Both the position numbers and the translations under genes were made by a program. From Trypanosoma brucei (Eukaryota), in NCBI GenBank assembly GCA_000002445.1, contig CP000066.1, positions 800,001 to 864,000 on the forward strand: 64,000 nucleotides of DNA. The letters run 5' to 3'. The notes beneath the pieces were generated by a model. That model made no database searches and had not been told where the DNA came from. It saw only the letters and a list, made by a program, of their open reading frames with translations. Positions 12,099 to 30,049 of the stretch are shown one piece after another (positions within the stretch are counted from its first letter, which is position 1; every line of letters starts with the position of its first letter).

Positions 12099-12937
12099 AT
12101 GCTTCTGAAGGCAATGCCAACACACCTACCACAAAATACGCGTCTCACTGAATGTAAGGAGAGGGGTAAAAGAGAAAACAAAGAACAAACATCCGTTTTC
12201 TTTTTTGTTTGGCAAACAGATAATGTTGGGTGAAAGCACGGGAAGCAGCCGAGCAGACTACCACAGGGGCACAAAGACAGAGGTGAAAAGGGGGTTCAAC
12301 AGGAGGATGCCACCAGCGCATACATATATATATATGTGTGTATATGAGTGGGGTACCTCCGATAAGGAAGGAAGGTAAACTTTATTTTTAAAAAAATAGG
12401 ATAAGGAACGCCAAGAAACAGTAACTTAATGGGCTGCACATATGTGTGTACGCAAACAAACACACACACACACGCAAGCACCAACATTCCTCGTCCATTT
12501 TCCACTTCTCATAGCTCTCCGTTTTTTGTTCTACCTACCAGGGGCTCGGACACAACATATTTGTTGTTATCGGTATATGTGTATTTGCTGGTGTTGCCGT
12601 GGTTTTAGTTGTGTTTTTCTTTTTCATTATAATGCTCTTTGTAATTATTCCCTTTTTATTTTGTTCTTTCATGGCTGCCCCAACGACCATTTACTTGCAG
12701 CTGCAATGATTCACATCCAGTGCGCACGTACATCCGTGCACTCCTGACAAGAAAATAAGTTGGAAGCTTTAAAGCGCCTGATCCAACACAAATTAGCTGT
12801 GGCGCACACACACGTACATTCACATTCATTAATAGCAGTATCAAGATCAACATGGAAATCATCGGCTGCAAAAACGCACACACGCACGTGTATAAATATG
12901 CATATGTTGAAGATACAAATTTATTTATGCTTATATA

Positions 12938-13000
12938 TATATATATATATATATAAGCATATATATAAGCATATATATATATATATATATATCGTCTCCC
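12938..13000. repeat. (TA)n microsatellite with interspersed AAGCA
   Basis: tatatatatatatatataagcatatatataagcatatatatatatatatatatc read directly. Confidence 0.9.
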
Positions 13001-13205
13001 TCCCTGACGCACAGGTATAATAATTAGCCCATCAGTCAGATGCAAGTGCAGTGTAGATATACAACACGGCATCTGTCCAATATATATATTATAAACAGAG
13101 AAAGCGAGAGCGAAAAAGAAGGGGAAGAAAGATCTCATTCTCCCCATACATATATATATATATATATATATGTACGTTCCCCGTCGACTTAACGGCTCCG
13201 CAGCT

Positions 13206-14409
13206 TTACTTCAGGTCTTGTAACAGGTGCAGCACCTGATGCACCTCTAAAAATTTGACACGGGGCCAATGCATTGCACGATCATTCCGCTGAAATGACC
13301 ACGGAATGGAGTCATTGTTACATCCCTCCTTCACAGCGTGGTGAAACTCGCCACACGCCTCAGTAAACAGAGACGGCTGTGGGGTGGGACCCCCCTCCTT
13401 TGCCTTAACACCTATGAGGAAATTGACAGACAAAAAACATGAAGAACCCCCCACGTGATTATCCTTTTTGGGCCTTATCTTACGCGGACAGGGACGGGCC
13501 TGTGCATGACGCTCTATGGAGTATATGAGGATTCGTAACCTGCTGGCCACATAGGAACTCCACACAGAAAGCGCCTGCTCAGTCTCCGCCATACTGTGGC
13601 CCGCACAACTTACACCCACAACAAGAAAGGTTGAATACTCTTCCTCTATTCTATACGGTTCCCACATCTCTTCCAACGGGAGAGTCCGCGCCTCCGTCAG
13701 AATGCATTGCACCCGTGTGATCTCGCTGTAAAGCGCCTCCAGCCCACATCGCCCAACGCTACTTGCATCGTTCACATATGGATACGCCGGACTGATCACG
13801 GGAAACAAATCGCAGCAAATTTTATCTTTCGACGGCTTCCATGAGTCTGGCAGCCCGGGAATGCGACCGCGACCCTCCAGAGTCGCAGTCAAATACACGG
13901 GTGAAATACGATCATGGCGGCTCATCCATTGCGTGTAGAAAAGAAAGAAAAATCGAAGAAGAGTACTGGGATGAGAAGATGGAAGCACCTGACAAACCCT
14001 AGCCACCATGATGGCAAGCACCGCGCCGTTCGGATACGTGTAGACATTGCCGTAAACCATCCGACGCATCGCCCATAGCTTTACTGTCTTCAGAACGGCA
14101 GTGAAGACATCGTACGGCACCGGAAGTCGCCGCTTAATCTCAAACGTGAAACGGATTCCGTTCGCACTGGGTCGGGTTTCTCGAGCCACCTTCAGTAGAA
14201 ACGAATCATCCAGCATCTGCTCCTCCGTAGGCGGCTGTGGCAGTCCAACAGAAACAAACACAACATCGACAGCTGTGCCTCTGTACTCAAATTTAACAAC
14301 GGGAACTCTGGCAGCGACTACAGACACGGGACCGACAGAGTTATATAACAACCTCGGAAACTCATCGAAAAAGATATCAGTCGTTAAAACAGATGGACAA
14401 ATCAGCGCG
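13206..14409 (-). CDS. PAP1: Poly(A) polymerase PAP1, exon 2 (central domain and C-terminus)
   Basis: Translation contains TTDIFFDEF...VPVVKFEY...VDVVF and FFFLFYTQW, the canonical-PAP central-domain signature. The frame is open upstream only to 14411, where a TGA stop sits. The minus-strand acceptor context is TTTGTGAAG|CGCGCTGATTTGTCCA, with a T10 tract about 75 nt upstream. Confidence 0.8.
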
Positions 14410-15059
14410 CTTCACAAATTCAACGTAATTCGGCGTTGTGATTGTTGTTGGTTGAAATGGTATGGTTGCGGGGTTTTGACAAAAAAAAAATGGAAAATCA
14501 GCATCCGTGTTTGCCGTCAGTACCATGTGCGGGTCACGAGTGCCACGACGACGAACAGACTCACATCAACAAAATATACACATATACACAAATGTATACG
14601 TGTACATATATGATTATACATGTATATGCATATTTAGATAATCACATCATTAACGAAGGAAGAAGCAATGGTCAATGTTGGAAATAAACACAAATGTATA
14701 GACAGTGAAAGCGAAACAGCACGCAGATCAGCCACGAAGGTTCGACAACCACGGCAAGATGAACGCGTCCAGACGTCGACAAGGCGATGGCGGCACGTGA
14801 AACGAGGAACAGGGAACGATGTGAGGAGGGGAAGAAAAGAAGAGGACGGGAGAAGAGCAGGGAAAAGATTACACGTAAAGCAGAAGCACGTTCCTTTAAG
14901 GGTTCACATGATCCAACATAAAATGAAAAAGGACCCAGAACACCAAAAAGGAAAAGAATAGTAAAGAAAGAGAGGAAGAAGAGGGGAGATGCATATACAA
15001 AGAGAGGAGAAAAGAAGAAGGGAGTAGAAAGGAGGGATTAAGGAAAGAACTCACCATAC
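14410..15059 (-). other. PAP1: cis-spliced intron of PAP1 (approx. 650 nt, GT..AG)
   Basis: On the minus strand the 5' end reads GAT GT|GTATGG and the 3' end reads ...TGAAG|CGCG. Joining 15060 to 14409 restores the reading frame, giving ...FGSCGLSASVAESDLDV-ALICPSVLTTDIFFDEF..., which parallels the PAP consensus GSDID.L.V.P..V.R.DFF. In-frame stops lie inside the interval. Confidence 0.7.
14465..14495 (-). promoter_or_regulatory. Polypyrimidine tract (T10, coding strand) upstream of the PAP1 intron 3' splice site
   Basis: Plus-strand a10 at 14481-14490 corresponds to T10 on the minus strand, about 75 nt 5' of the AG at 14411/14410. Confidence 0.45.
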
Positions 15060-15319
15060 ACATCGAGATCACTCTCTGCAACTGAAGCGGAAAGACCGCA
15101 TGAACCAAATGGGTAGGCACGTGCCCATTGTTCCTGAGTGTTTTGGGAGTGCCGCTGCACAATGCGAAGCGCCATCGACTCCACTAGCGTTAAAACCGGA
15201 TTGGGACTAATGGAAGGGCATTCGGCCAACACGCCGTAAAGCATCTCAGACTCGTCGTAGTCATGGTCTTGTGGACGGGGAACCTCTAGTGGTTTCGTTG
15301 GGCCATACATCCACTCCAT
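15060..15319 (-). CDS. PAP1: Poly(A) polymerase PAP1, exon 1 (N-terminal nucleotidyltransferase motif)
   Basis: MEWMYGPTKPLEV...LTLVESMALRIVQ...AYPFGSCGLSASVAESDLDV matches the PAP N-terminus, including the FGS.....SD.D catalytic motif. ATG at 15317-15319. The ORF-track start at 15421 is GTG and gives a low-complexity leader. Confidence 0.7.
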
Positions 15320-15460
15320 CAAATAAAGTGTTTCTTCCTTCAACGTAACACATAGAAGTAAAAGAAGCCACACAAGCGGGGATATTGAAAAAATGGAAAG
15401 GTGAGAAAAAAAATAGAGCACATAAAAAGGTGCATCAACGCGTAGGAAAGTGGAGGAGGC

Positions 15461-15462
<2 letters not shown>

Positions 15463-15498
<36 letters not shown>
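15463..15498. repeat. (TA)17 microsatellite in the PAP1 upstream region
   Basis: catatatatatatatatatatatatatatatatatcg read directly. Confidence 0.9.
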
Positions 15499-15499
<1 letters not shown>

Positions 15500-15896
15500 T
15501 TCCTAGGAACAAAGTGACAGGTGGTTGAAGGGCAACAACTGGAGTATCTGGTATGTTTGCTCTATAAATACACTGCATGTTCCCAGGCCACTGCCACTTG
15601 GCTAATAACCTTGAACTATGCACTTACGCATAGCCGGTAATATGCTGCCCACTCACTCAACACAACGAACGAAATCAGTGGCGTGGGTGTTTCCACGATG
15701 GCACACACGATCGTAGTGGAAGAAAAAAAGAGGAAAGAAGTGTGGAATATTTCATACATTCATATGTCTCTTCGACACCCGAAAGACGATATCTCTACTT
15801 TGCTGCCACACATACACACACACACACATACGCACAGCTACATAGCCCGCAAGCCCCTCGCCGCGATATTCAACTCGGCACGTTAGTGTGACTCCT

Positions 15897-17861
15897 CTAG
15901 ACGGCGGCACGAGGTAGATAATCCGAGCTTGCTGACAGCTTCATTACTTCCTCATGGAGAATGCTGCTCGAGTGGGGAATAACAAAGCGGTCCCCAGCTG
16001 AAGCCACAAGCGCCTGCCCGTCGGTCAGTTGGTCAACGGATGTTACCTCACAACCTGTAGCGTCGTATATTGTGTCCACTTTCTTCCCAAGAGCGTGCCA
16101 CTCCAACTCCCTCTCGACTGTGTTCATGACGGCACGCATCGTTTTGTGCGCAGGCCTTAGTGTTACGGTACGAAAGGGGAATCGGTCGTTATTCCTGTCG
16201 CCATACTCTCCGTTCTCAAACACACGCACGGATATCGGTCTCAGGATTCCCTTTCCCGGGGCTGTATGGGGAGCACAATGCACTCTCTCCTGCTGTTTCG
16301 GCTGCTGTTTCGGTTGTTGCTTTGGTTGGCCACCTGCTGCACCAGAACCTCCAATCGAATGTGACTTCCTCACGGGCGTGCCCGTGGCAGGCCGGCCAGC
16401 CGGAATCCTCGAAGCCTCCGCACTTGCTGCTTCCACCTTTACACCCTTTGAGGGCGCCGGAGGGCAAGCATACACATGACCAGTCGTTGCCACAAGAGAT
16501 ATGCCATCCGTGATAAACTCCGCACGTGCGATTTCAACGCCTTCAGTGGTGAACAAACGCTTCACCCGCCTTCCAGAGGACTCCCAACCAAGCGCTTGCG
16601 TGAGTATATCTAATACACACGGCAGTGTCTTTGCTTGTCCGCTCAGAACAACTTGCTTAAACTGCAATGCAATTTGCCCAGGAAGCACTCCTGCCACCTT
16701 GCACCGCCTCGGCTTCGCAGTCACATCCTTGCTATCAAGTCGTGGAATCCCCGTGGCTCCATCATTCAGGGAGTATTTAGGCTGGTAATTTGTTGGACAG
16801 CCGGTGGGTAGGGAACGATGGTTTCCACCCCTGGGAACACATGCTTCCGGCGGTTTCACCTGAGGAGACGCAATTTCAACGGCTGGTGACTCGCGAGGAC
16901 CGCGGGACCCTGGAGGGCGGCTGCTCGCCAATGCAACACCACCGCTGCCCCTCTCCCTCGGAGTATTTAACGGTTTCGCAGCTCCGTCCTTCTTCTGGAC
17001 ACGAGACTTCGTGGTTAACGTAGGAGAAACTCCCTCAGTCCTCAGAGTGTCAGATCCCGATCTCCTAGTTTCCGTACAACTAGACAGCGAAGGGTTGCTT
17101 TCAGCAGCAGCACGAGCGGAGGAAGAAACCAGCATCGGCTTGCCCCCACAGCGAATAATTGTGGGGGGAGCTGGTGTTGCCGCATTCCACAGTTCGTCCG
17201 TCGATGGAAGCCTTGTCGAGTCAAATCTCTTATTTGCTTTTAACTCCGAAGACCTCCTAAGCTCCTTAGCATTCTGCACACAAGCTGCACGCCTTAGTTC
17301 CCCAATCATTTCCCATGTAGGCTGCGGGGGGGCCTCAGGCTTCGACTGAGGGGTAACACCAGGAGCGGTTTCACCTCCAGTGGAAGTCTCACAACGCGGT
17401 TTCTGTTGCCCAGAGCTATTCTTCGCAGAACCTCTCCCTCTATCCTCGATGTCAAGGCACTCAGTGAGAAATACTTTGGAGGCACCGTCAGCGAATCTCA
17501 TCTCTACTGCTGACTTTCCTTGAAATGAGGGTATGACACGGGTGATCTTCCCTCGTTCGCCCAGGTACACTTGTTTCACAGGGTCAGGAATAAAAATGCC
17601 TTTTTCCTCACGGAGTAAAGTGGACATATCGTCGATCGTCTGAACATAGTCCCCAACACGCAGAATCATCTCTCCCACTTTGAGGGAAGTTGGCTCCTCC
17701 TCAGCTGCCTTTCTCAGGGCTGCCTGGGCAACCTCCGCAGCGGTCATCTCTAAATTCTTGCCAGCCAGCTCATCAAACGCCCTCTGTTCCCTCTCCCTCT
17801 CCTGACGGAGGATCTCAAGCTTTAACTGTATTTCCTCCCGCTTCGATGCCGCTGTATGCAT
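15897..17861 (-). CDS. Hypothetical protein with N-terminal coiled-coil and two C-terminal doublecortin (DCX)-like ubiquitin-fold domains
   Basis: 654-aa ORF with ATG at 17859-17861. Two segments (…RRVKRLFTTEGVEIARAEFITDGISLVATTG… and …KKVDTIYDATGCEVTSVDQLTDGQALVASAGDRFV…) fit the DCX pattern (R.F.NG...v...l.dG...Va.g). The middle is low-complexity S/P/G-rich with a QPKQQPKQQPKQQ stretch. Confidence 0.6.
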   Translation of the reverse strand: MHTAASKREEIQLKLEILRQEREREQRAFDELAGKNLEMTAAEVAQAALRKAAEEEPTSLKVGEMILRVGDYVQTIDDMSTLLREEKGIFIPDPVKQVYLGERGKITRVIPSFQGKSAVEMRFADGASKVFLTECLDIEDRGRGSAKNSSGQQKPRCETSTGGETAPGVTPQSKPEAPPQPTWEMIGELRRAACVQNAKELRRSSELKANKRFDSTRLPSTDELWNAATPAPPTIIRCGGKPMLVSSSARAAAESNPSLSSCTETRRSGSDTLRTEGVSPTLTTKSRVQKKDGAAKPLNTPRERGSGGVALASSRPPGSRGPRESPAVEIASPQVKPPEACVPRGGNHRSLPTGCPTNYQPKYSLNDGATGIPRLDSKDVTAKPRRCKVAGVLPGQIALQFKQVVLSGQAKTLPCVLDILTQALGWESSGRRVKRLFTTEGVEIARAEFITDGISLVATTGHVYACPPAPSKGVKVEAASAEASRIPAGRPATGTPVRKSHSIGGSGAAGGQPKQQPKQQPKQQERVHCAPHTAPGKGILRPISVRVFENGEYGDRNNDRFPFRTVTLRPAHKTMRAVMNTVERELEWHALGKKVDTIYDATGCEVTSVDQLTDGQALVASAGDRFVIPHSSSILHEEVMKLSASSDYLPRAAV

Positions 17862-18609
17862 CTTTTACGAGTGTTTCACAAATTAAAATAACACAATGGG
17901 CCGTCTTCCCACAGAGCCTTTACGACAGTACTAACCAGTCAGTCCAGCAGAATAAAGCAAAGAAAAAACAGGGCTGTTGCAGAGAGTTAAGATGCTAGCT
18001 CATGTCGATGAGTGAAAGAAAGAGTGTAGAAAAAGAAAGCTACCAGCAGGTGCTTACGAAAAAAACAACACTCACGCCCTTTTTCACCAAAGGAAGTGCA
18101 GCACATGGTTTAACACACACACAAAAACTTCCCACTCACAACGAAATAAAGGCAACAACACACCTCAACATCCAAGTTATTGTCACCACACACATAATTA
18201 CACACGCACGCATATGCGTGCAAGCATCAAACAAAAAAAAGAACAAAACAGAGCGATTACGCTAGTTGTGAATGAACAACAGAAACACAACCAGGCTACA
18301 CCCTCTCAACACAAGTACCACCACATATTCACATTTCTATGTATGTACGTGCTCAACGAAAACGAAAGGTGGCGAAAGCACGAAACAAGCCCCAACACAG
18401 GCATATGCAATAACAGCACAACACAAACTAGTAAAAGGAACAGTGAACCGCCATATCACACACCTTCAATAAGATTAATTGCTAACATTTTTGGTATCCT
18501 CCATTTTACCTGTGAAGGATTCATCGTCAAATGAAACTAAAGAAGGGTAGAAAACAAAGAAAACACCAAATAAGGTACCTGACGCAGCGGCAACACCACG
18601 TCGACTTGC

Positions 18610-20760
18610 TTAAGCATTCCCAGAAGAGGCACCAAATGAGAAGGGATTCCGTGGAGCATTGTTCTTTTCACCACTTGCTGAAGCATTCCCAGCAGAGGCA
18701 CCAAATGAGAAGGGATTCCGTGGAGCATTGTCCTTTTCACCACTTGCTGAAGCATTCCCAGCAGAGGCACCAAATGAGAAGGGATTCCGTGGAGCATTGT
18801 CCTTTTCACCACTTGCTGAAGCATTCCCAGCAGAGGCACCAAATGAGAAGGGATTCCGTGGAGCATTGTCCTTTTCACCACTTGCTGAAGCATTCCCAGC
18901 AGAGGCACCAAATGAGAAGGGATTCCGTGGAGCATTGTCCTTTTCACCACTTGCTGAAGCATTCCCAGCAGAGGCACCAAATGAGAAAGGATTACTCGGG
19001 GTGCGAGTGACACCTGAAGTTGAACCTGCAGTTGGAGATGGTGACCCGTCTTCGTCATCACCTCCAGCGTTGTCAGCGAAACCCTCATCATCAAACGGGA
19101 CAGCAGATGGGCCACTTTTAAAGAAACCACCAGATGAAGCTGTCTTTGAAGTCACAGCCCCAATACCCGAGCTCGCTGCAGCACTTCCAGCAGAGGCACC
19201 AAATGAGAAGGGATTCCGTGGAGCATTGTCCTTTTCACCACTTGCTGAAGCATTCCCAGCAGAGGCACCAAATGAGAAGGGATTCCGTGGAGCATTGTCC
19301 TTTTCACCACTTGCTGAAGCATTCCCAGCAGAGGCACCAAATGAGAAGGGATTCCGTGGAGCATTGTTCTTTTCACCACTTGCTGAAGCATTCCCAGCAG
19401 AGGCACCAAATGAGAAGGGATTCCGTGGAGCATTGTTCTTTTCACCACTTGCTGAAGCATTCCCAGCAGAGGCACCAAATGAGAAGGGATTCCGTGGAGC
19501 ATTGTTCTTTTCACCACTTGCTGAAGCATTCCCAGCAGAGGCACCAAATGAGAAAGGATTACTCGGGGTGCGAGTGACACCTGAAGTTGAACCTGCAGTT
19601 GGAGATGGTGACCCGTCTTCGTCATCACCTCCAGCGTTGTCAGCGAAACCCTCATCATCAAACGGGACAGCAGATGGGCCACTTTTAAAGAAACCACCAG
19701 ATGAAGCTGTCTTTGAAGTCACAGCCCCAATACCCGAGCTCGCTGCAGCACTTCCAGCAGAGGCACCAAATGAGAAGGGATTCCGTGGAGCATTGTCCTT
19801 TTCACCACTTGCTGAAGCATTCCCAGCAGAGGCACCAAATGAGAAAGGATTACTCGGGGTGCGAGTGACACCTGAAGTTGAACCTGCAGTTGGAGATGGT
19901 GACCCGTCTTCGTCATCACCTCCAGCGTTGTCAGCGAAACCCTCATCATCAAACGGGACAGCAGATGGGCCACTTTTAAAGAAACCACCAGATGAAGCTG
20001 TCTTTGAAGTCACAGCCCCAATACCCGAGCTCGCTGCAGCACTTCCAGCAGAGGCACCAAATGAGAAGGGATTCCGTGGAGCATTGTCCTTTTCACCACT
20101 TGCTGAAGCATTCCCAGCAGAGGCACCAAATGAGAAGGGATTCCGTGGAGCATTGTCCTTTTCACCACTTGCTGAAGCATTCCCAGCAGAGGCACCTGAT
20201 GAGAAAGGATTACTCGGGGTGCGAGTGACACCTGAAGTTGAACCTGCAGTTGGAGATGGTGACCCGTCTTCGTCATCACCTCCAGCGTTGTCAGCGAAAC
20301 CCTCATCATCAAACGGGACAGCAGATGGGCCACTTTTAAAGAAACCACCAGATGAAGCTGTCTTTGAAGTCACAGCCCCAATGCCCGAGCTCGCTGCAGC
20401 ACTTCCAGCAGAGGCACCAAATGAGAAGGGATTCCGTGGAGCATTGTCCTTTTCACCACTTGCTGAAGCATTCCCAGCAGAGGCACCAAATGAGAAGGGA
20501 TTCCGTGGAGCATTGTCCTTTTCACCACTTGCTGAAGCATTCCCAGCAGAGGCACCAAATGAGAAGGGATTCCGTGGAGCATTGTCCTTTTCACCACTTG
20601 CTGCAGCACTTCCAGCAGAGGCACCAAATGAGAAAGGATTCCGTGGAGCATTGTTCTTTTCACCACTTGCTGAAGCATTCCCAGCAGAGGCACCTGATGA
20701 GAAGGGATTACTCGGGGTGCGAGTGGTACCTGAAGTTGGGCCTGCGACGTGTGCAGCCTT
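18610..20760 (-). repeat. Nested coding tandem repeat: 69-nt (23-aa FG) unit inside an approx. 290-560 nt super-repeat
   Basis: Near-identical 69-nt copies are visible at 18665, 18734, 18803 and onward. The spacer block recurs at approx. 18985, 19549, 19841, 20202 and 20698, with variable numbers of 69-nt units between. Confidence 0.85.
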
Positions 20761-21588
20761 TTCCCCATCTCTATTCGTGCCACGGTCAGTTCCACCACCA
20801 AGCCCTTCTGCCTCAAATGTCACACGCCTCAATAGGTCTTGCCGCATAGTTGAAGACGCATCTGCATCGCCTTGGTCGCGCCTCCGCTTCTCTGGAGTGG
20901 GGCGGGGAGCCAATATAGTCGACCTGTACGAAGGCCGTGACGGCCGTATCGTGTAACGCGGCTCGTTGAACCTTGCCAATAACAGAGGATCCACGGTGGG
21001 TAGATTATTTGATGGAGCGGCGTAGTAGAAGTTGTATTGATAATGGTGCGTGTAAGGCCCAGTCTCCGGTTCTATCATCTGGGACCCACGCTGATGGGCA
21101 TTACCAGCAAATTCACCGGGCCTCACAACAACGGGATTGCACTCCGCTCGCGCAACTGCCGCTACTCCTGAGCGATGCGACTGCATATGCATGGTGTTCG
21201 CTGCCGTGGTTACATTATTAGTTATGGGTGGTACCGGCGAGTTTGTCTGGGATGGTGGCGCATGTGAGGAAGCTACTGAGTCTGGCGTTGGACCACACCG
21301 GCTGGCGTCAGCCCCGCCCACGGTGGTCACTCCCAAAACGGCTCGCATGACACCTTTAGCCAAACCGCCGAGACGCGTCATACACCACGCCAAACTGCCG
21401 CTTACACGAGCGATATTCGACATGTTTTTCTGGTGATCAACCTCCTCACCGTTACGCAAGACGACCGTACCTGTTGATACGCCATGGCGAGACATCGCTG
21501 AGTGGTCTCCAAACCGGTGAGACGAGGTGGGCGTAAAGGAATCCTTCTTGGCACAAAGGCGTACGGTTATACGCGGCCGCTCACGCAT
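18610..21588 (-). CDS. FG-repeat nucleoporin, possibly TbNup98
   Basis: About 990 aa. The N-terminal ~280 aa are non-repetitive. The remainder is tandem 23-aa units NPFSFGASAGNASASGEKDNAPR (FG/SFG type), interspersed with a recurring ~50-aa spacer (GIGAVTSKTASSGGFFKSGPSAVPFDDEGFADNAGGDDEDGSPSPTAGSTSGVTRTPS). First ATG at 21586-21588 (the track start is TTG). Confidence 0.8.
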   Translation of the reverse strand: MRERPRITVRLCAKKDSFTPTSSHRFGDHSAMSRHGVSTGTVVLRNGEEVDHQKNMSNIARVSGSLAWCMTRLGGLAKGVMRAVLGVTTVGGADASRCGPTPDSVASSHAPPSQTNSPVPPITNNVTTAANTMHMQSHRSGVAAVARAECNPVVVRPGEFAGNAHQRGSQMIEPETGPYTHHYQYNFYYAAPSNNLPTVDPLLLARFNEPRYTIRPSRPSYRSTILAPRPTPEKRRRDQGDADASSTMRQDLLRRVTFEAEGLGGGTDRGTNRDGEKAAHVAGPTSGTTRTPSNPFSSGASAGNASASGEKNNAPRNPFSFGASAGSAAASGEKDNAPRNPFSFGASAGNASASGEKDNAPRNPFSFGASAGNASASGEKDNAPRNPFSFGASAGSAAASSGIGAVTSKTASSGGFFKSGPSAVPFDDEGFADNAGGDDEDGSPSPTAGSTSGVTRTPSNPFSSGASAGNASASGEKDNAPRNPFSFGASAGNASASGEKDNAPRNPFSFGASAGSAAASSGIGAVTSKTASSGGFFKSGPSAVPFDDEGFADNAGGDDEDGSPSPTAGSTSGVTRTPSNPFSFGASAGNASASGEKDNAPRNPFSFGASAGSAAASSGIGAVTSKTASSGGFFKSGPSAVPFDDEGFADNAGGDDEDGSPSPTAGSTSGVTRTPSNPFSFGASAGNASASGEKNNAPRNPFSFGASAGNASASGEKNNAPRNPFSFGASAGNASASGEKNNAPRNPFSFGASAGNASASGEKDNAPRNPFSFGASAGNASASGEKDNAPRNPFSFGASAGSAAASSGIGAVTSKTASSGGFFKSGPSAVPFDDEGFADNAGGDDEDGSPSPTAGSTSGVTRTPSNPFSFGASAGNASASGEKDNAPRNPFSFGASAGNASASGEKDNAPRNPFSFGASAGNASASGEKDNAPRNPFSFGASAGNASASGEKDNAPRNPFSFGASAGNASASGEKNNAPRNPFSFGASSGNA

Positions 21589-23160
21589 ATGCCCTGAGTA
21601 CACTCTATGCAAAAGCAACCTGAAAAAGAAAAAATGAGAAAATTCCTCCTTATTCAGAAGAGGGATAGAATCCTATTTTGAGCGTAAATTTATCCTTCCC
21701 AAAAGGAGGTAGAAAAGAGCAGCGGGGATGTACAAAGAGGAGACAGCCAAAGGTCTTCACAAGAAAAAGAACATGTGGTGGTGATGGCACCGGTTTTTGG
21801 CAGACACACACACACACACGTACACAGGCACAGACATAAATAACCAAATGAATGCAAACGGTGCGCACAATAGCACCAACACATAGCAATACCCACCCCC
21901 ACTCGAGTTTGTAAGCCGCCCATTTTACCTTCCCCCCTTTTCCGCATTTCCTTCATACAAACTCGCTCACGCGCACACACGTAAATATTTATTTATATTT
22001 CTTTTCAAAATACATATACATATACATATATATATATATATATATATGTATTCGCAAGCACATTTGCAAATACATTTCCACAGAGCGCTCAGCACGAACT
22101 GCAGCCCCCTCTCATTCCTGTCCTTCTACACATATTCCAGCGTCAGTGCATGACACCGGGCTCCCTTTTATCTCGTGGCACTTCAAAAATATCAACTCGC
22201 CTCGATGCAAACAATGCCGCCTTGGCGACGTGTAAAATGATGTGCGCTCCCTCGGAGGCGCCTGCGGAGAGAAGTAGAAAAAAAAAAAGGAGGAAGAGAA
22301 AAATGCGCACAACAGCGATCATGCTGAGCGACATATTATTATGTGGAGCACCCATAACGAAAAAAAAAAAACTGAAAAACAAGGAAGTCAAATGGAAAAA
22401 GGAGGGAAATTTTTTAATAAAAAAAGAAAAAGACTACAAATTCTAAAACGAAGATGGGAATGATTTTTCGTTAAACAACAAAAAGAAGAAAACAAAACGT
22501 TGTACAAACAAGAGACTACACGAATAGTAAAGGAAATACGGAGCGATACACCTGACCGCATATATTACAAATATAAATACGTGTTTATGTTTGGTATCCG
22601 TGCTTTTGCATGTGTGCATCTGCAAGTGCTTCTGTACGAGAAGGAAAAAAAAGGGGGGGAAGGCACAAATTTAAAAAAAAAAAAGAGGAAAGAGGATGAG
22701 GAGAGGAACGAAAGTAGCAAAGAGAACCGCTGGGGAGGAAAAGCGAAATGAACGAAAATAAATAATGTTTTTCCATCTTCTTCTTCTTGCTCGATTTTAA
22801 ATGTGTACGACGTGGACAGTCACATCGATAGGTGCGCACGTACTTTTTACAAGTGTGCTCGCAGCAACAACAAAAGCTTCTTTTCTCCCTTCCTCCTCCT
22901 TCCTCCCTCTTCCCTCCTCTCAACCAACACCTCCCTTCCCCGAACCTACACAAAAAGTAACCAAGAAAAAACAAAACATTGCTTTTCAACAGAAAAGAAC
23001 GGAAGGCAAAAATAGGAAGAAGAAAAAAATGGAAGTCAAATAAAAAAGTATGTGGATTGTCGGTGAGGAAAAGATATGGGGAAAAAAAAGAAAGAAATAA
23101 AAAAATGAGACGGAGTTAACAATTTAAAAAAAAGGGGGGGATCACGGAGGGGTGGAAATA

Positions 23161-24672
23161 CTACATCTTCTTCCCCTCGTACACGCACAACTTAGTGATA
23201 GCATTGGAATGGTGAGCGTGTTGGGCACCCAGCAATTCGTTTAGTTGCTTCTGAATATCCACGTTGGAAATTTCATTATTGAGCATAAGCTGATTCACTA
23301 GCTCCGCAGCCTCGTTAAGAAGTTTCACCCCAATCTCCTTCTCGAGAATGGCCCGCACCTGAGATGCTGGCACAGACTTTCCACTTGACAGTATAATCAT
23401 GTCTTCCTGTGGTGAGCTATCAGAAGGACCATCACCAAACTCCTCGGGATGGCCACCGAGATTTGTCTTGCCCACAATATTTTTGCTTTGCTCTACAATT
23501 AGCTTCTTTTGCTCAATGTACTCCCCGTCATCGTCAACCTCATGGTGCCCGTCATCCTGCTCGCTCTTGGAAGGCGATTGTTGCTGTTGTTCCTGCGGTG
23601 GACCGGCAGCTGCCTGTTCCGCCAACATGGCCTTTATGCTCTCCCGATTCATCCCCCGTAACTTTGCCATTTGCTCCTTTTGGCTCAATTGTGGCTCTTT
23701 GGGGTACTCTTTTGGCTTCTCCGGAGTACTCACAGGCTTAACAGGTTTTGTTATCTTGGGGTTCCGTGCCTCATACTCCGCCCGTTCCTTTTCCGCCTGC
23801 TTCTCAAGGTCCGCACTAAATCCTTTAAGAGACTCCTGCACAAACGGCGACTCTAAAATGCGATTTATGCTGGGACGCTGAACAGGGTTGACTTGCAAGA
23901 GCGCTCCGCAAAGGCCGCGAATTTCCGCTGGCACAGTGGATGGAATGGGCTCATATTGCCCAACGAGGATCTTCTTCAAGAGCTCCTTCAGTGAGCGGGC
24001 GAGAAAAGGCCGTTGGAGCGTCAAAAGCTCATAAAGAATGACACCGAGGGCCCATACGTCACTCTTATTGTTGTATGGTTTGTTCTGGCAGAGCTCCGGG
24101 GAGAAGTAATAGGGAGTGCCACACACGGTCTTGGCACAGGCCAATGTATTCTGCACGACGGTGGAAATACCGAAGTCACCCAACTTCACGACGTTCTTCG
24201 CTGTAAGGAAAATGTTCGCTGTCTTCAAATCCCTATGCAAGATGTGGTTATCATGAAGGTACTTGAGTGCCATGCAAATCTGCAGGAACCAAAACATGGC
24301 CAGCTTTGGTTCAAAGGGGACAACGGGATCATTCTTCTTCGCATCCTTGATACGTGTGTTGAGGTCCCCACCATCGGCATACTCCATAACAATAAATATC
24401 AGTGTGCCATCTTCGAAGTGCTCGTGGTAGCGGATGATATTGGGATGATTGGCTGCCGCTAAAATACGTATTTCATTTTGTACATCACGTTTCTCCTTCG
24501 CAGACATGGCGGCTGATTCAATTGCCTTTGCGACGTACCGTTTGCCATCCTCCTTTGACCGTACGAGCACCGCTTCACCAAAGCTACCCTTCCCGATGCC
24601 CTTCATTATGCGGTACTTGCTGAGAAACAACTCTGAGGACAAGGCTTTACATTCATCTGCAACCTGCGCCAT
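23161..24672 (-). CDS. NEK (NIMA-related) serine/threonine protein kinase
   Basis: 503 aa with ATG at 24670-24672. Kinase subdomains include GKGSFGEAVLV, VAK, HRDLKTANIFL, DFG, GTPYYFSPE and DVWALGVILYELL. The HRDLKxxN plus GTPYYxSPE combination is the NEK-family hallmark. The C-terminal tail is low-complexity. Confidence 0.85.
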   Translation of the reverse strand: MAQVADECKALSSELFLSKYRIMKGIGKGSFGEAVLVRSKEDGKRYVAKAIESAAMSAKEKRDVQNEIRILAAANHPNIIRYHEHFEDGTLIFIVMEYADGGDLNTRIKDAKKNDPVVPFEPKLAMFWFLQICMALKYLHDNHILHRDLKTANIFLTAKNVVKLGDFGISTVVQNTLACAKTVCGTPYYFSPELCQNKPYNNKSDVWALGVILYELLTLQRPFLARSLKELLKKILVGQYEPIPSTVPAEIRGLCGALLQVNPVQRPSINRILESPFVQESLKGFSADLEKQAEKERAEYEARNPKITKPVKPVSTPEKPKEYPKEPQLSQKEQMAKLRGMNRESIKAMLAEQAAAGPPQEQQQQSPSKSEQDDGHHEVDDDGEYIEQKKLIVEQSKNIVGKTNLGGHPEEFGDGPSDSSPQEDMIILSSGKSVPASQVRAILEKEIGVKLLNEAAELVNQLMLNNEISNVDIQKQLNELLGAQHAHHSNAITKLCVYEGKKM

Positions 24673-25265
24673 TTGCCTTGTCGGTTATCGCCGCTGCTTC
24701 GCTCCTTCGTTCCTTTGTTGTATATATATATATATTTGTTGTGGTTGTTGTCGTAAGTACTGGGCGAGGTTGTAGGGAAGTGACTGTATTAATCCCCCCT
24801 TCCTTCTCTCCTTTTGTTCCTTTTTCCTTGTGATATATCAATAATATAGATATATAGATATATATATGTGCCTGTGGGTGTCTCTTTATTGTTATTCACT
24901 TCTTTTCCCTACTTTCCTTTGATTTTTTTTTCCTTTTTATTCCTTTCTGATATATTTTTCAGAATATGCCACAACCTGTAAAACTTATTAATCAGTCGGG
25001 TTACTATCCCACCTAAATGTAAAACGCACGATTACGCAAAAAGTATCCTGCTTTTTGATTCCTTTCGTGTTTTTCCCCTTTTTTTCTTTTACGTTTGTTT
25101 GTTTTTGTTTGACTATCCAACTTTCGGTATATTCACTATCTGGATTATTTGTTCGTCAATATTCTCTTTATTATTATTATTTTTTTTCTCCGCTTGTTTG
25201 CGTCTCTCCCTTTTCCTTTTCTTTTTTCTCTTCGTTCACTTCAAATAAAGAAATATATAAATATT

Positions 25266-25297
<32 letters not shown>

Positions 25298-25552
25298 TAT
25301 AGGGCTAATGCGAGTGACAAGGTCCCTGTGAGTGATAACGTACTTTCTTATACGCCTGACTAAATATATATGAAATATATGTAAATATCTGTTTATCTAT
25401 TTATGGCCTTTGTACGTTCGGATTGTCCTCAAAAAAAAAAAAAAAATACAAACAAACAAACAAACAAATGCACAAAAAAGGTGGATATATATATATATAT
25501 ATTTGTATACTTCCAGCCACCTTTACTTTTGTTCTTGTTTTTTCCTTCTTTT

Positions 25553-25564
25553 TGTGTGTGTGTG

Positions 25565-25599
<35 letters not shown>

Positions 25600-25600
25600 T
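25553..25600. repeat. (GT)7(GTT)11 compound microsatellite; (CAAA)n nearby at 25448-25470
   Basis: gtgtgtgtgtgtgttgttgttgttgttgttgttgttgttgtt read directly. Confidence 0.9.
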
Positions 25601-26254
25601 TGCTTTCTTTTGGTTCCTTTTGTTTCCTCACGTACCAATAACAACAACAGAGTTATTTATTATCATTGAACAAGCATTGTAGTAACAAAAAAAAAGAGAA
25701 AAAAGAGAAAAAAAGAGATGAAGTCATTCAATAGATATTTTTTTGAAAAAAAAAACACAAACAAACAAACTTACAGTAGTAACCAAAATACAGCAGCAGG
25801 CGTTTGGGCACAGAAAAGAATGGACATAACTGAATAGAAGGATGCATGACGAGTCGTAACTTTAACCTTCGGATACGCACAAAGTTGAAGAAAACAAAAA
25901 GAAAGAAAAGGAAAGAAAGGGAGAGAGAAAGGAGAAAATGCTTCTTATAATCTTTCTTTGTTTTTTTTTCTATCCTTGTCTTTTGCCTTCAGTTCCCAGT
26001 TACCTGTCCTCGCATGTGTCCTCTCTTGCGTATTTCTCAGTTTGCTTCTTTTCTTTTTTTTTGTGTGTGTGTGCGTGTGGGTGTGTGGTCACATCGGCCC
26101 TTCACTCAATTTCATTGAGGTTCTAAATTCTGATCCCTCATTGTGCCCCAGTCTAGAGACGAAAACAGAGAAGTTACATAATTGACAAAGGAGAAAAAAA
26201 CATAAGAGGGCGGGCACTCCATTGTCAGTGATATGTATATGTATAGAAATACAA

Positions 26255-26290
<36 letters not shown>

Positions 26291-27056
26291 GTATTTCTTT
26301 TATATATATATATATATTTCTTGTTTGTTTGTTTGCTTGCTTGTTTACTATTATTTATACAATTTCTCTTTTCTTCTCGAAACACGCATAAACATACATA
26401 TATATATATATATATGTCTATACGTGAAGGAGAGAAAGAAAAGTGATAAAAGTCAAGTGATTGGAAGGGAGGGAAATAATAACACAAACAAGGATGGGAA
26501 GAAAAAAAAATCCGTAGGGAGCAAAAAAAAAAAAAAGAGTAAAGAAAAGAAGGAGCGGTAAGTAAAACCAGCCTCCTCAGCTCCCTGAAACCCGCGTAAT
26601 GCCGCTTGATAGTGAATTATTCCATTCACTAGCTTCTTTTAAATACCTCTCTCTCTCTCTCTTCTTTTCTTTTCGTTTTCTCTTTTTTTTTCTTGTTTTT
26701 ATATTCCTTCTCTCCTTCTTTCCCTCCCTTTCACTCACACAGCACCTAACCACATTACATCCCAGGTGAAAATTCACACACATACATACACTAAAAGAAA
26801 GACTGAGTGAGCGCCCCCATACCATCCTTAAGAAAAGGGAGAACAACAACAACAATAACAACAACAACGGCAAAGGGAAAAAACAAAAAAGAAAAAAGAA
26901 AAAAAGGTAAGGTGTGTAAAGGTGGGGAAGGAAACAACATCACCTCCATGTTTGCGTACAACTACATGTAATGCACAGCAAAAACTACGCACGCAGCCGC
27001 CCATTTGAAGCGCTACGCAACCTCCTCTTGCCTTATTCTAAGACATTAGGCTCTAC

Positions 27057-28109
27057 TTAATAAAAACGGCGCAAACATGATTGAACTACACTTGTGCATT
27101 CAAATGTATTGGGTTTCCAGACACCAGTCGCACCTTTTGGAGGTCCCGGAACATACGTGTCTTTGGCTTTTGCCCTCCTTCGTCTCCTGTTCTTTTTCTT
27201 TTCCTCTTCTTCCAATGCTGCAACATCAATCCATGTGTTGGGAAATGGATCGATGTTACCTTCATTTCCAGATCTCGTCCACACAAATGTCATGGCTCTC
27301 TCCTGTACAAATGTCGGACCTGCCGCTTCTTGTTTGTTTTTTCGCTTCCGCTTCGATGGTTTCTCATCTGCTGGTTCAAAATGGTAGACACCAGAAACAC
27401 CTGTGGCTGGGAGCTCATCCAAATAGTCATGTATAACACCCGGTGTCCTGAATAAAGGCCCCAGAGGTTTAGGAGGCGCAAGTTTCTTACGCTTTTTAGC
27501 CTCAGCAGCCTCTAATTTCTCGTGCTCCTTCCGCCAATCATCATTGTATTTGGGATTGTCAAGGAGAATTCCCACGTAACCGTACGTTCCCTTTTTGGAG
27601 GGATTAGTCTTGATGTTTGGCAGGAGTTCTTTTCCTTTGGAGTCCTCCTCCGAGGAGGAGGCCTTCTTCTTTCTTTTAGATTTTTTGGATTTAGGTCCAC
27701 CTTCTTCTCCCGGCATGATGAATTCATATGGTCGTTCCTGGAAGCAACCGCTGTAACCACCTGGTCCGTTAATTGACTTGGGGAAAGATGGCGGAAGGAA
27801 ATCTTTATTAGAGATGTTGTGTTTTTTCGCCTCACGCCGCTCACGATGCATGCGAGTTGTGGCATCCTCAAAAGGGCCCACGCTTTTATTGTTGTTTTGC
27901 TCCGCGGACGCCAATGTGAGAAACTTCTTGTCAAAAAACACTTCAGGACCATTACCGGAGGGACAACGTCCAATCGACATCCCCTTCCCAAGATAACGAG
28001 ACGGAATGGTGTCCATTTTGTCATATGGATCTGTCTTCTTGGGGTCGATATCCGTAGAGACCAGCGGCGGGTCGGAAAACAACCCACCAAACGCGCTCAA
28101 GTGAGTCAT
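27057..28109 (-). CDS. Conserved hypothetical basic (K/R-rich) protein
   Basis: ORF 27057..28253. I place the start at ATG 28107-28109 (MTHLSAFGG…). The upstream 48 codons are hydrophobic low-complexity from AT-rich sequence, but the ATG at 28251-28253 cannot be excluded. Lys-rich stretches are present (KSKKSKRKKK, KRKRKNK, KKKNRRRRRAKAK). Confidence 0.45.
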   Translation of the reverse strand: MTHLSAFGGLFSDPPLVSTDIDPKKTDPYDKMDTIPSRYLGKGMSIGRCPSGNGPEVFFDKKFLTLASAEQNNNKSVGPFEDATTRMHRERREAKKHNISNKDFLPPSFPKSINGPGGYSGCFQERPYEFIMPGEEGGPKSKKSKRKKKASSSEEDSKGKELLPNIKTNPSKKGTYGYVGILLDNPKYNDDWRKEHEKLEAAEAKKRKKLAPPKPLGPLFRTPGVIHDYLDELPATGVSGVYHFEPADEKPSKRKRKNKQEAAGPTFVQERAMTFVWTRSGNEGNIDPFPNTWIDVAALEEEEKKKNRRRRRAKAKDTYVPGPPKGATGVWKPNTFECTSVVQSCLRRFY

Positions 28110-30049
28110 TTGTTCCGCCTTAAACTCTACGTGATGATTGTAATAACTACAAGAATAAAGACAAAGAAATAAAGAAATAATTAAAAAATGGAGTCGCAGA
28201 ATAAAACAAAACAAATAATCTAACCCATTGTCCAAATGATGGGTACCATTCATTATGACCTTTCCTATTGGACATAATTCCTTGTCGTCACTATTGAAAG
28301 TGCCCTAAACTGTTGATGTTTCAACAGTTCCTTCACGCACTTCTCTCTCTCTCTCTCTTTTATAGTTTCTTTCGATTTTTTTTTAAATTTAATTTCATTT
28401 TATTTTATTTTATTTTTCTGGTTTCGTCAAATTCCCTCTTTTCACTCAAGACATTAAATGCCACTCCTCAACTCGCCTCTCACCAAAAGTCCCAAATTCC
28501 AAATTAGGAGGAGGTGCGCACTTGTCGCCGTAACGCCTCGGGGAGAGAGGGGAGAGTTTTGCAGCAAATATATATATATATATATATATATAAGAAAGAG
28601 AGGAAAAAAAAAAGAGGGAAAGTGAAGACGGCAATGGACCACTCATTTGAAATCCCTCAAATGGACCGCGTCACTCAACTGAATAACAGTGAAGCTTAAA
28701 CTATTTTATTTATTACTATTATGGTTGCTACTTTTTTTTTCTTTTTTTTTTGAGGAGGAGGAGGGGCTGATGATGTGAGGACCTTTAAAAGCAACAAAAA
28801 AGCCAATGCGCGAGCCATCACGCGTAATAGGCCAATAAAAAAAATAAATAAAAGAAGAAAAGAAGGAAAGAAAGAGAAATGAAACGAGAGAAGAAGGCAC
28901 AACAAAAAGGGAGAAAGATGGGAGTGGTTAAAATAAAGAAAGTGGAGAAAGAAGAGGAAATCAATAAGGTAAGTAGGGGAAAAAGAAGAAGAGAAAAAAA
29001 AGGAAATTAAACAAAACAACAGTTCGACTAGTACAAGCAGAAACACGCAGCAGTAGCACAAAAGACAAAAATAAAAACGGTACGGTGAAAAGCAGATCAT
29101 CGTGCTTCCACGCATCAAACATCTGTGTTCGCAATAAGACATGAGCACATTGTGCAAGTGTACATTTTTTGGTGTGAGCATAACCAAACCTGCCTTTTGT
29201 TCTTGTTGTTGTTGTTGTTTTTTTACTTGTTTCATTTTGTTTTATTCTTAACGTCTCTCAACCGCATGTCTTAACATTACTTCCCATCACCATCGTCCAC
29301 CACACCAACCAAGACCAAAGCAATTTGAGCGTTAATGTTTTCCCCCTTCTTTTTTTTCTCCCTCTCTCTTTCTCTCTCTTTGTTTGTTTGTTTGTTCCCC
29401 TCACGTTTCCCTCACAAATGTGACAAACAGCAACACTCCAAATTACTTGCAGTAAACCACCAAAACGACCCGTTCAACATAATATTAGAAATTGACTGCA
29501 CTTCAAAATCTCATCATCACAACAAAGAAAAACACACCAAGACAATAATACCTTTTCATCATCTGCAGTAATTGCATCAAAATAGGACAAAACAATACAT
29601 TTTATCGTACTTAAACGCTAAATCCATTCACCCCTGAGAGAAACTTCCGTTTTGTGTGGCCACACCGGGGTCAAGTAAAAACGAGAAGGGCAATGGCATT
29701 GAAACTATTTTTAAAAAGAAAAAAAAAGAAAATATAGATTTATGTTTAGTCTCCGTTAGCACAGCATATCATCTATATCATTAATTTTTCATTCTTCGCT
29801 TGATCATTCGTTATCCCCCTCTCCTCGCCACACATGCACACATAGGCATGTCTGTCCTTTTCTATTGCACTTTCTTTCTGTTTTTTTCTTCATCCTCTTG
29901 TGCGGTCCAACAATTCACTCATTGAAGAGACGGATATGGGAATCCCCGTGCGTATTGCGCCAATATAAATATACGCAGCCGGCTCCCCTTTGAGACATCG
30001 TCGCTTTCTTTTTTTTTTTGGCTGACTCCTGCAGCAACTACGCAACTAT

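What the first reader, a model, noticed from the sequence alone, without database searches (positions are those of the whole stretch)
18610..21588. FG-nucleoporin with a nested repeat architecture; mirrored antisense ORFs; probable repeat-number uncertainty
The C-terminal two-thirds of this protein consists of 23-aa (69-nt) FG units, NPFSFGASAGNASASGEKDNAPR. These are grouped by a recurring 50-aa acidic or Gly-rich spacer into 5 super-repeats containing 2 to 6 FG units each. The near-perfect nucleotide identity of the units implies recent expansion or homogenisation. It also means copy number in any assembly is unreliable. The perfect periodicity leaves long open frames on the opposite strand (18659..20956 +, 765 aa) and in other frames. 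These are repeat artefacts, not genes. If this is TbNup98 as synteny suggests, the FG flavour here (SFG/PFSFG rather than GLFG) is worth documenting.
Basis: seen in the sequence. Interest (0 to 1): 0.55.

Follow-up and report, generated by a model that had tools for sequence, protein, structure and literature searches.

The report
Trypanosome FG nucleoporin TbNup98 repeat array
This is the already well-studied Trypanosoma brucei nuclear-pore protein TbNup98; its repeats and the empty antisense reading frames are as described, but the piece called a "spacer" is the best-conserved part of the repeat region and may be a binding site.

Summary
ORF 18610..21588 (-) encodes 992 aa (98.1 kDa). Residues 294-992 hold 22 NPFS(F/S)G units of 23 aa (20 are FSFG). 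Four identical spacers divide them into blocks of 5/3/2/6/6. The 765-aa antisense ORF exists.

The gene is TbNup98 (Tb927.3.3180). Mass and FG range (321-986) match the published table exactly. Published TbNup98 tagging and RNAi primers map onto the ORF with no mismatches.

The FSFG flavour has been documented since 2009. TbNup98 is named for its mass and is not the GLFG Nup98 orthologue, which is TbNup158. So the gene is already known.

The copy-number doubt is justified. T. b. equiperdum has 20 units in blocks of 6/3/6/2/3. T. b. gambiense has at least 32 units around an N-gap. T. rangeli has a gap and T. vivax has frameshifts in the array.

The antisense frames are open only because a stop-free stretch of about 97 codons is repeated, and they lie on the non-coding strand of a one-directional gene cluster.

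It is conserved from Trypanosoma to Leishmania, while the FG units are not. No searched paper contains this sequence. It is probably a multivalent docking motif; its partner is unknown.

The parts
18610..21588 (-). Complete TbNup98 (Tb927.3.3180) coding sequence, 992 aa plus a TAA stop at 18610-18612
   Evidence: ORF. Mass 98,143 Da, first FSFG 'FG' at aa 321 and last G at aa 986. This equals 'TbNup98, 98 kDa, FG (FSFG): 321-986' in PMC2742445. Published primers map to it.
20710..21588 (-). Non-repetitive, basic N-terminal region (aa 1-293, net charge +12); presumed anchor to the nuclear pore
   Evidence: AlphaFold2 with a 6-sequence alignment predicts it disordered apart from one helix. Published RNAi primers map at 21523-21542 and 21072-21091.
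21559..21588 (-). Conserved N-terminal basic motif MRERPRITVR (aa 1-10); supports the ATG at 21588 as the start
   Evidence: Aligned with MRERERITIR (T. vivax), MRERPRLTVR (T. rangeli) and MHRNRIRVR (L. martiniquensis).
21334..21423 (-). Only predicted secondary-structure element: a helix at aa 56-85, overlapping the conserved (Y)WxRIAxLAxxT segment
   Evidence: AlphaFold2 helix H56-85, pLDDT about 55-69. Conservation. Hydrophobic moment 0.45-0.67 across orthologues.
21022..21036 (-). Conserved aromatic motif YNFYY (aa 185-189)
   Evidence: Alignment of six orthologues; coordinates.
20878..20889 (-). Conserved basic patch KRRR (aa 234-237), resembling a nuclear localisation signal
   Evidence: A KRxR column is present in all six orthologues; coordinates. 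The function is inferred.
18613..20709 (-). FG array: 22 NPFS(F/S)G units in five blocks (5/3/2/6/6) separated by four spacers
20266..20349 (-). Conserved acidic motif, copy 1 (GGFFKSGPSAVPFDDEGFADNAGGDDED, aa 414-441), inside the hybrid unit/spacer at 20212-20433
19906..19989 (-). Conserved acidic motif, copy 2 (aa 534-561), inside the spacer unit at 19852-20073
19615..19698 (-). Conserved acidic motif, copy 3 (aa 631-658), inside the spacer unit at 19561-19782
19048..19131 (-). Conserved acidic motif, copy 4 (aa 820-847), inside the spacer unit at 18994-19215
18659..20956 (+). Antisense 765-aa ORF; a by-product of the repeats, not a gene
   Evidence: One antisense frame has no stop in either the 23-codon unit or the 74-codon spacer unit. 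Of 23 ORFs of at least 250 aa in the window, 20 are on the minus strand.

Best explanation
**Identity.** The ORF is TbNup98 (Tb927.3.3180) of Trypanosoma brucei chromosome 3. It is a kinetoplastid-specific FSFG-type FG nucleoporin and is almost wholly intrinsically disordered.

**Structure and action.**
- Inferred: the basic N-terminal 293 aa carry four short conserved elements, namely MRxRxRITVR, one predicted helix (aa 56-85), YNFYY and KRRR. These most likely tether the protein to the pore, the NUP64/NUP75 complex or the nuclear envelope.
- From general FG-nucleoporin knowledge: the C-terminal 700 aa project FSFG units that give transient hydrophobic contacts to transport receptors.
- From published experiments on this exact gene: the protein sits on the nuclear side of the pore with NUP64. 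It is strongly proximity-labelled by Mex67 and Ran. [quoted passage not shown]
- Inferred here: four copies of a conserved 28-aa acidic, Phe-containing motif are interleaved with the FG units. The invariant positions point to a specific multivalent docking site rather than a passive linker.

**Array evolution.** The array evolves by unequal recombination or gene conversion. Units are therefore nearly identical within a genome, while unit number and block order differ between T. brucei subspecies.

**Antisense frames.** The antisense open frames are a mechanical consequence of repeating a stop-free unit in register.
For: **Identity.**
- The neighbouring kinase is identical to TREU927 XP_843912.1.
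- The 992 aa, 98.1 kDa and FG range 321-986 match the published table entry for Tb927.3.3180.
- The TbNup98 tagging primer matches 18613-18691 with no mismatch. The 3'UTR primer matches 18536-18611. The RNAi primers match inside the N-terminal region.
- PAP Tb927.3.3160 lies two genes downstream.

**Orthologues.** A full-length HMMER search of 1.84 billion representative proteins returned only trypanosomatid relatives as strong hits. All four that were examined lie between the same kinase and DCX genes.

**Disorder.** There is no Pfam domain. AlphaFold2 gives only helix 56-85 in the N-terminal region and no structure for the motif.

**Motif.** Ten columns are invariant across nine copies from six species. 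The FG units differ between species in sequence and period. In P0014, three diverged copies keep 65-77% identity in the core against 40-55% in the linkers.

**Array dynamics.** The flanks are 98.3-98.7% identical to T. b. gambiense and T. b. equiperdum, but the arrays are rearranged: 22, 20 and at least 32 units.

**Function, from the literature.** Nuclear-side location and Mex67/Ran labelling are in PMC11825100. The NUP-1 link and the RNAi phenotype are in PMC8255026.
Against: - No binding partner of the acidic motif is known, and none could be tested here. Conservation of an acidic, aromatic patch could reflect a biophysical role, such as tuning charge or cohesion, rather than a specific interaction.
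- The anchoring role of the N-terminal elements is inference only. The helix has modest confidence (pLDDT 55-69), and the T. brucei copy is the most divergent.
- Earlier immuno-EM placed TbNup98 symmetrically, in conflict with the 2025 nuclear-side assignment.
- The exact 992-aa sequence is not in the protein collection, so identity to the reference protein rests on coordinates, mass and primers, not on a sequence comparison.
Confidence: 0.9

Rival explanations
1. The nested array as seen in this window is partly an assembly product. The true allele(s) would have a different number or order of units, possibly differing between the two homologues, and the 5/3/2/6/6 layout would be one collapsed or chimeric solution.
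For: - Exact internal repeats reach 443 nt, and the spacers are 221-222/222 identical.
- The DAL972 assembly has a 101-N gap in the array and a garbled spacer copy.
- T. rangeli has a 733-N gap.
- T. vivax has frameshifts that split the gene.
- Short-read Logan contigs around the neighbouring kinase all end before the array.
Against: - The layout gives exactly the 98 kDa and the FG range 321-986 used in the proteomic identification.
- The reading frame is intact across the whole array.
- The gap-free T. b. equiperdum array is of similar size: 20 units and 4 spacers.
- None of this proves the copy number.
Confidence: 0.3
2. The spacer is only a charged, flexible linker. It would set the spacing and cohesiveness of the FG domain through bulk negative charge and would have no specific partner.
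For: - Net charge is -5 per spacer against 0 per FG unit.
- AlphaFold2 predicts no structure for it.
- There is no related sequence in the PDB apart from a chance enolase match.
- Copy number varies from 3 to 8 among orthologues, which suggests tolerance.
Against: - Ten positions, including uncharged ones (F, G-P, A-V, F-A, N-A), are invariant across six species from Trypanosoma to Leishmania. The surrounding linkers and the FG units have diverged.
- A pure charge function would not fix Gly, Pro, Ala, Val or Asn at set spacing.
Confidence: 0.25
3. The 765-aa plus-strand ORF (18659..20956), or another alternative frame, encodes a real overlapping protein.
For: - It is the longest open stretch on the plus strand of the window: 780 codons against 342 for the next longest.
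- A long antisense frame is also open in T. b. equiperdum (734 codons), L. martiniquensis (420) and T. vivax (638).
Against: - The non-redundant information is only about 97 codons (23 + 74) that happen to lack stops. In-register repetition then multiplies this.
- Of 23 ORFs of at least 250 aa, 20 lie on the minus strand, and GC skew is uniformly negative. This fits a single minus-strand polycistronic unit.
- The open antisense frames in the orthologues follow from the same repeat logic and from high GC content (0.60-0.63).
- Only three protein searches were run and none used the antisense product as query, so nothing is known about homologues of it.
Confidence: 0.02

Closest known systems
TbNup98 / TbNUP98 (Tb927.3.3180), Trypanosoma brucei
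   Same: It is the same gene. Mass, FG type and FG range are identical, and the published tagging and RNAi primers map to it.
   Different: Nothing differs at the gene level. The conserved acidic motif in the spacer and the subspecies differences in block layout were not found in the literature searched.
TbNup64 / TbNup75 (Tb927.4.4310 / Tb927.8.8050)
   Same: They have the same FSFG flavour, form one complex with TbNup98, and are kinetoplastid-specific.
   Different: They have a predicted coiled coil (aa about 150-230), which TbNup98 lacks. Whether they carry the acidic motif could not be checked because their sequences were not retrievable here.
S. cerevisiae Nup1 / Nup60 and vertebrate Nup153 (nuclear-side FxFG nucleoporins)
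   Same: They share the FxFG-type repeats, the nuclear-face location, and links to the TREX-2/Sac3 region and to the lamina or basket. They have been proposed as functional analogues in the literature.
   Different: No sequence homology was detected; HMMER returned only trypanosomatid relatives as strong hits. TbNup98 has no zinc fingers. An N-terminal membrane-binding amphipathic helix, as in Nup1/Nup60 (from my own knowledge), is only a possibility for helix 56-85.
S. cerevisiae Nsp1 FxFG domain (regular 19-aa PAFSFGAK... repeats; from my own knowledge)
   Same: Both have highly regular FSFG units with short charged hydrophilic linkers, and both arrays are homogenised.
   Different: Nsp1 has a C-terminal coiled-coil anchor and a single-level repeat. 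TbNup98 has an N-terminal anchor region and a two-level, nested repeat with an interleaved conserved acidic motif.
Metazoan Nup98 / yeast Nup145N-Nup116 (GLFG nucleoporins)
   Same: They share only the number in the name and membership of the FG nucleoporins.
   Different: TbNup98 has 0 GLFG and no autoproteolytic domain or any other Pfam domain. The trypanosome orthologue of Nup98-96 is TbNup158, Tb11.03.0140.

Membership tests
FG nucleoporins (FxFG/FSFG class) | Many FG motifs spaced by hydrophilic linkers in a low-complexity region | tested here: met
   There are 20 FSFG motifs in 699 aa, with Ser/Ala/Gly/Asn-rich linkers.
FG nucleoporins (FxFG/FSFG class) | Intrinsic disorder of the FG region, with a separate anchor | tested here: inconclusive
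   AlphaFold2 shows the N-terminal region disordered except for helix 56-85, and the motif segment unstructured. The FG units themselves were not modelled, and no anchor has been shown.
FG nucleoporins (FxFG/FSFG class) | Localisation at the nuclear pore and physical association with nucleoporins | not testable with these tools
   This has been published for this exact gene. It covers the NPC proteome and GFP tagging, immuno-EM, expansion microscopy and TurboID, and myc tagging with primers that map here.
FG nucleoporins (FxFG/FSFG class) | Match to the Pfam nucleoporin FG repeat models | tested here: not met
   No Pfam family was found at E <= 0.01. This is not a defining requirement, because FG domains are compositionally defined.
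Nup98 / Nup145N / Nup116 (GLFG family) | GLFG repeats | tested here: not met
   There are 0 GLFG motifs.
Nup98 / Nup145N / Nup116 (GLFG family) | C-terminal autoproteolytic (Nup98 APD) domain | tested here: not met
   There is no Pfam hit, and the protein ends inside an FG unit.
TbNup98 orthogroup (kinetoplastid-specific) | Position between the Ser/Thr kinase and the DCX-domain gene, upstream of PAP | tested here: met
   This order is found in the window and in L. martiniquensis, T. vivax, T. rangeli and an unnamed trypanosomatid.
TbNup98 orthogroup (kinetoplastid-specific) | Shared N-terminal motifs (MRxRxRITVR, helix, YNFYY, KRxR), the repeated acidic motif and PFSF-type units | tested here: met
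Nup1/Nup60/Nup153-like nuclear-side FG nucleoporins (functional analogy) | Detectable sequence homology | tested here: not met
   HMMER against 1.84 billion representatives found no opisthokont nucleoporin.
Nup1/Nup60/Nup153-like nuclear-side FG nucleoporins (functional analogy) | N-terminal amphipathic helix that binds the membrane | tested here: inconclusive
   There is one conserved predicted helix, with a hydrophobic moment of 0.45-0.67. Membrane binding is untested.

The most novel reading that the evidence does not exclude
The 28-aa acidic motif GFFKxGPxAVxxDDxGFAxNAxxDDE is repeated 3 to 8 times in every TbNup98 orthologue found. It may be a previously undescribed, kinetoplastid-specific multivalent docking site on the nuclear face of the pore. 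Candidate partners are the lamina proteins NUP-1/NUP-2, the Sac3/TREX-2-like complex, and Ran or Mex67. On this reading, the ancestral repeat was a super-repeat of about 95 aa holding one motif plus 2-4 FG sites, and salivarian trypanosomes secondarily amplified a single FG unit inside it.
Probability: 0.35. Interest if true: 0.55.

Novelty: already known. Interest (0 to 1): 0.3.

Why it matters
The gene itself adds nothing new. TbNup98 is a standard nuclear-pore marker in trypanosome cell biology.

Three practical points follow from this analysis:
- **Gene models are unreliable across assemblies.** Repeat number and block order differ or are broken in most assemblies examined. Peptide counts, the number of FG sites (12, 16 or 20 FSFG) and comparative statements should not rest on a single assembly.
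- **Tagging may truncate the array.** The published C-terminal tagging homology arm also matches ten internal positions with at most 2 mismatches, so tagged alleles could carry shortened arrays.
- **The spacer motif is a concrete experimental target.** It is conserved and mutable. It could be used to ask how this nuclear-side FG nucleoporin connects the pore to the lamina or to the mRNA-export machinery in a lineage that lacks Nup153/Nup1 homologues.

Tried and rejected
**Searches that found nothing.**
- Three word-indexed protein searches all returned no hits: the N-terminal 293 aa, the motif alignment and the N-terminal alignment of six orthologues. They returned nothing even though some query rows are exact substrings of proteins in the collection. 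I treat these as tool misses, not as evidence of absence.
- An exact look-up of the 992-aa protein found that it is not in the collection.
- A profile search of the motif against PDB sequences found only a chance enolase 'GFAPN' match at E = 6.
- A literature search for the motif strings found 0 papers.

**Attempts that fell short.**
- The Logan short-read contigs around the kinase are all 2.8 kb or shorter and stop before the array.
- AlphaFold2 on the N-terminal region and on the motif gave low-confidence models. I therefore ran no fold searches.

**Ideas considered and rejected.**
- Orthologue of metazoan Nup98: rejected because there is no GLFG and no autoproteolytic domain.
- Real antisense gene: rejected.
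- FFAT-like or clathrin-box readings of the acidic motif: the pattern does not fit, and this rests on memory only.

**Unresolved.** The 3' splice site of the neighbouring PAP intron could not be fixed; two in-frame AG candidates remain.
Full report
**1. The observation**

The minus-strand ORF 18610..21618 is open. From its first ATG, at 21588, it encodes 992 aa of 98,143 Da.

Residues 1-293 are non-repetitive. Residues 294-992 (70%) consist of 22 units beginning with NPFS:
- Seventeen are regular 23-aa units. The consensus NPFSFGASAGNASASGEKDNAPR is exact in 10 of them.
- Four are 74-aa units, in which a unit start runs into a spacer.
- The last is a 12-aa stub before the stop codon.

Twenty units read FSFG and two read FSSG. 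The four spacers divide the array into blocks of 5, 3, 2, 6 and 6 units.

At the DNA level the four 222-nt spacer units are 221-222/222 identical. Only ten 69-nt variants exist among the 22 units. The longest exact internal repeat is 443 nt. Tandem Repeats Finder sees periods of 69, 291 and 360 nt.

The plus-strand ORF 18659..20956 (765 aa) is present, as are shorter ORFs in one further antisense frame and one further sense frame.

**2. Identity**

- The adjacent kinase (23161..24672) is identical to T. brucei brucei TREU927 XP_843912.1.
- DeGrasse et al. 2009 list Tb927.3.3180 as 'TbNup98, 98 kDa, FG (FSFG): 321-986'. In this ORF the first FSFG has its FG at residue 321 and the last G is residue 986.
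- Padilla-Mejia et al. 2021 give TbNup98 primers. The C-terminal tagging primer equals 18613..18691 (-) with no mismatch. The 3'UTR primer equals 18536..18611 (+). The two RNAi primers lie at 21523-21542 and 21072-21091.
- The poly(A) polymerase two genes downstream is split by an intron. This is the known property of Tb927.3.3160, which fits the gene numbering.

The ORF is TbNup98.

**3. What is already known**

- FSFG is the documented flavour of TbNup98, TbNup64 and TbNup75.
- The name reflects mass. The Nup98-96 orthologue is TbNup158, with GGFGQ repeats, a beta-sandwich and an alpha-solenoid. The ORF has 0 GLFG and no Pfam domain.
- TbNup98 is regarded as kinetoplastid-specific and forms a complex with NUP64 and NUP75.
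- Immuno-EM placed it symmetrically. In 2025, expansion microscopy and proximity labelling re-assigned it to the nuclear side, where Mex67 and Ran label it strongly.
- It has been proposed as a functional analogue of yeast Nup1/Nup60.
- It interacts with the lamina proteins. Its depletion causes NUP-1 clustering, nuclear blebbing and polyploidy.

**4. Copy-number reliability**

Using the neighbouring genes, I fetched the locus from other assemblies. The flanks align collinearly at 98.3-98.7% identity, whereas the array matches at many places.

| Assembly | State of the array |
|---|---|
| T. b. equiperdum (CM010674.1) | 20 units, 4 spacers, blocks 6/3/6/2/3, only 12 FSFG |
| T. b. gambiense DAL972 | At least 32 units, at least 5 motif copies, a 101-N gap inside the array, one garbled spacer; annotated as two genes (863 + 412 aa) |
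| T. rangeli | 733-N gap in the array |
| T. vivax | Frameshifts split the gene into 720- and 523-aa ORFs, each ending in out-of-frame repeat translation |

The doubt about copy number is therefore well founded for the family. For this window, the intact frame and the match to the published mass argue that it is at least a plausible allele. Only spanning long reads can settle it.

**5. Antisense frames**

- Of the six frames of the 69-nt unit, four lack stops.
- One antisense frame also lacks stops across the 222-nt spacer unit.
- Both periods are multiples of three, so about 97 non-redundant stop-free codons are copied into a 780-codon open stretch.
- Of the 23 ORFs of at least 250 aa in the window, 20 are on the minus strand, and GC skew is negative throughout. 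This is as expected for one polycistronic unit.
- The comparable antisense frames in the orthologues follow from the same logic and from high GC content.

I agree that these frames are artefacts. That is an inference, because no expression data were available here.

**6.

A full-length HMMER search of 1.84 billion representative proteins gave nine hits. The real relatives are from T. vivax, T. rangeli, Leishmania martiniquensis, a EukProt entry and an unnamed Logan assembly. All four loci examined have the same gene order: APC3-like TPR, CFAP96-like, kinase, this gene, DCX, PAP.

Across these species the FG units differ in sequence and period:

| Species | FG unit |
|---|---|
| T. brucei | 23 aa |
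| T. vivax | 21 aa, SNPFS(L/F)GAGSSAAPADKPAVP |
| L. martiniquensis | PFSFS, with no FSFG at all |

The 'spacer', in contrast, carries a motif that aligns without gaps. Its consensus is GF(F/V)KxGPPAVIxDDSGFAPNADSDDE. The positions F, G-P, A-V, D, F-A and N-A are invariant in nine distinct copies from six species.

T. brucei and L. martiniquensis are 47% identical over this 34-aa window, against 17-20% over the N-terminal region. In P0014 the three copies have diverged from one another, yet the core remains 65-77% identical against 40-55% for the linkers. The conservation is therefore not just recent homogenisation.

Copy number is 3 to 8 per protein. In Leishmania and the EukProt sequence the motif recurs with a regular period of 93-98 aa, with 2-4 FG-like sites per period. 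In T. brucei and T. vivax a single FG unit has been amplified to variable numbers between motifs. That explains the 'nested' look.

AlphaFold2 predicts no fold for the motif. No PDB sequence resembles it. No searched paper contains its sequence.

My reading is that it is a multivalent short linear motif for a nuclear-side partner. The partner is unknown. The plain charged-linker alternative is not excluded.

**7. The N-terminal region**

The orthologue alignment shows four short conserved elements:
- MRxRxRITVR at the very start, which supports the ATG at 21588.
- A (Y)WxRIAxLAxxT segment.
- YNFYY.
- A KRxR patch.

AlphaFold2 with the six-sequence alignment predicts only one helix, residues 56-85, at pLDDT 55-69. 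The rest is below 50. The helix is moderately amphipathic. These elements are the likely anchors to the pore or the envelope. That is inference only.

**8. Verdict**

The object is a known, well-studied gene, and its FG flavour is already documented.

Two results are worth keeping: the direct evidence that this array is mis-assembled or polymorphic across assemblies, and the conserved acidic motif hidden in the 'spacer'.

Interest is low to moderate.

Noticed in passing
window 13206..15319 (-): The poly(A) polymerase gene is split. Exon 1 (15319..15055) ends ...DLDVY followed by GTGAGT. The downstream ORF begins in the middle of the nucleotidyltransferase domain. This is Tb927.3.3160, one of only two cis-spliced genes in T. 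brucei (PMC4041458). Two in-frame AG acceptors, with exon 2 starting at 14317 or 14305, could not be told apart.
   Followed up: partly
window 18613..20545 (-): The published 79-nt TbNup98 C-terminal tagging homology arm matches the true 3' end exactly. It also matches ten internal array positions with 1-2 mismatches. Recombination could therefore occur internally and delete distal repeats in tagged lines.
   Followed up: partly
window units at 20641..20709 and 20143..20211; L007 and L008 arrays: Units without an FG (NPFSSG, with TTT changed to TCA; also NPFSLG) make up 2 of 22 units here, 8 of 20 in T. b. equiperdum and 16 of 32 in T. b. gambiense. T. vivax units are mostly NPFSLG, and L. martiniquensis has PFSFS. 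The conserved core is NPFS rather than FG, and the number of true FG sites differs widely between close relatives.
   Followed up: partly
L007 13788..13887 and 18878..18978; L011 9699..10431; L010 8001..11785: Public assemblies of the orthologous locus contain N-gaps (DAL972, T. rangeli) or frameshifts (T. vivax) inside the array. These produce split or 'partial' gene models.
   Followed up: yes
window 1..64000: Of 23 ORFs of at least 250 aa, 20 are on the minus strand, and GC skew is negative throughout. The window is a single polycistronic transcription unit. The gene order APC3-like TPR, CFAP96-like, kinase, Nup98, DCX, PAP is conserved from Trypanosoma to Leishmania.
   Followed up: partly
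window 22010..22051 and about 15460..15500: Short AT-rich microsatellites, (ATACAT)n and (TA)n, lie in the intergenic regions on either side of the Nup98-DCX gene pair, upstream of Nup98 and downstream of DCX. The Logan short-read contigs around the kinase are at most 2.8 kb long; by my arithmetic the longest would end near the first microsatellite.
   Followed up: no
window 27057..28253 (-): The CFAP96-like gene is annotated as 398 aa in DAL972 but as 350 aa in TREU927 and T. equiperdum. This is a start-codon annotation discrepancy.
   Followed up: no
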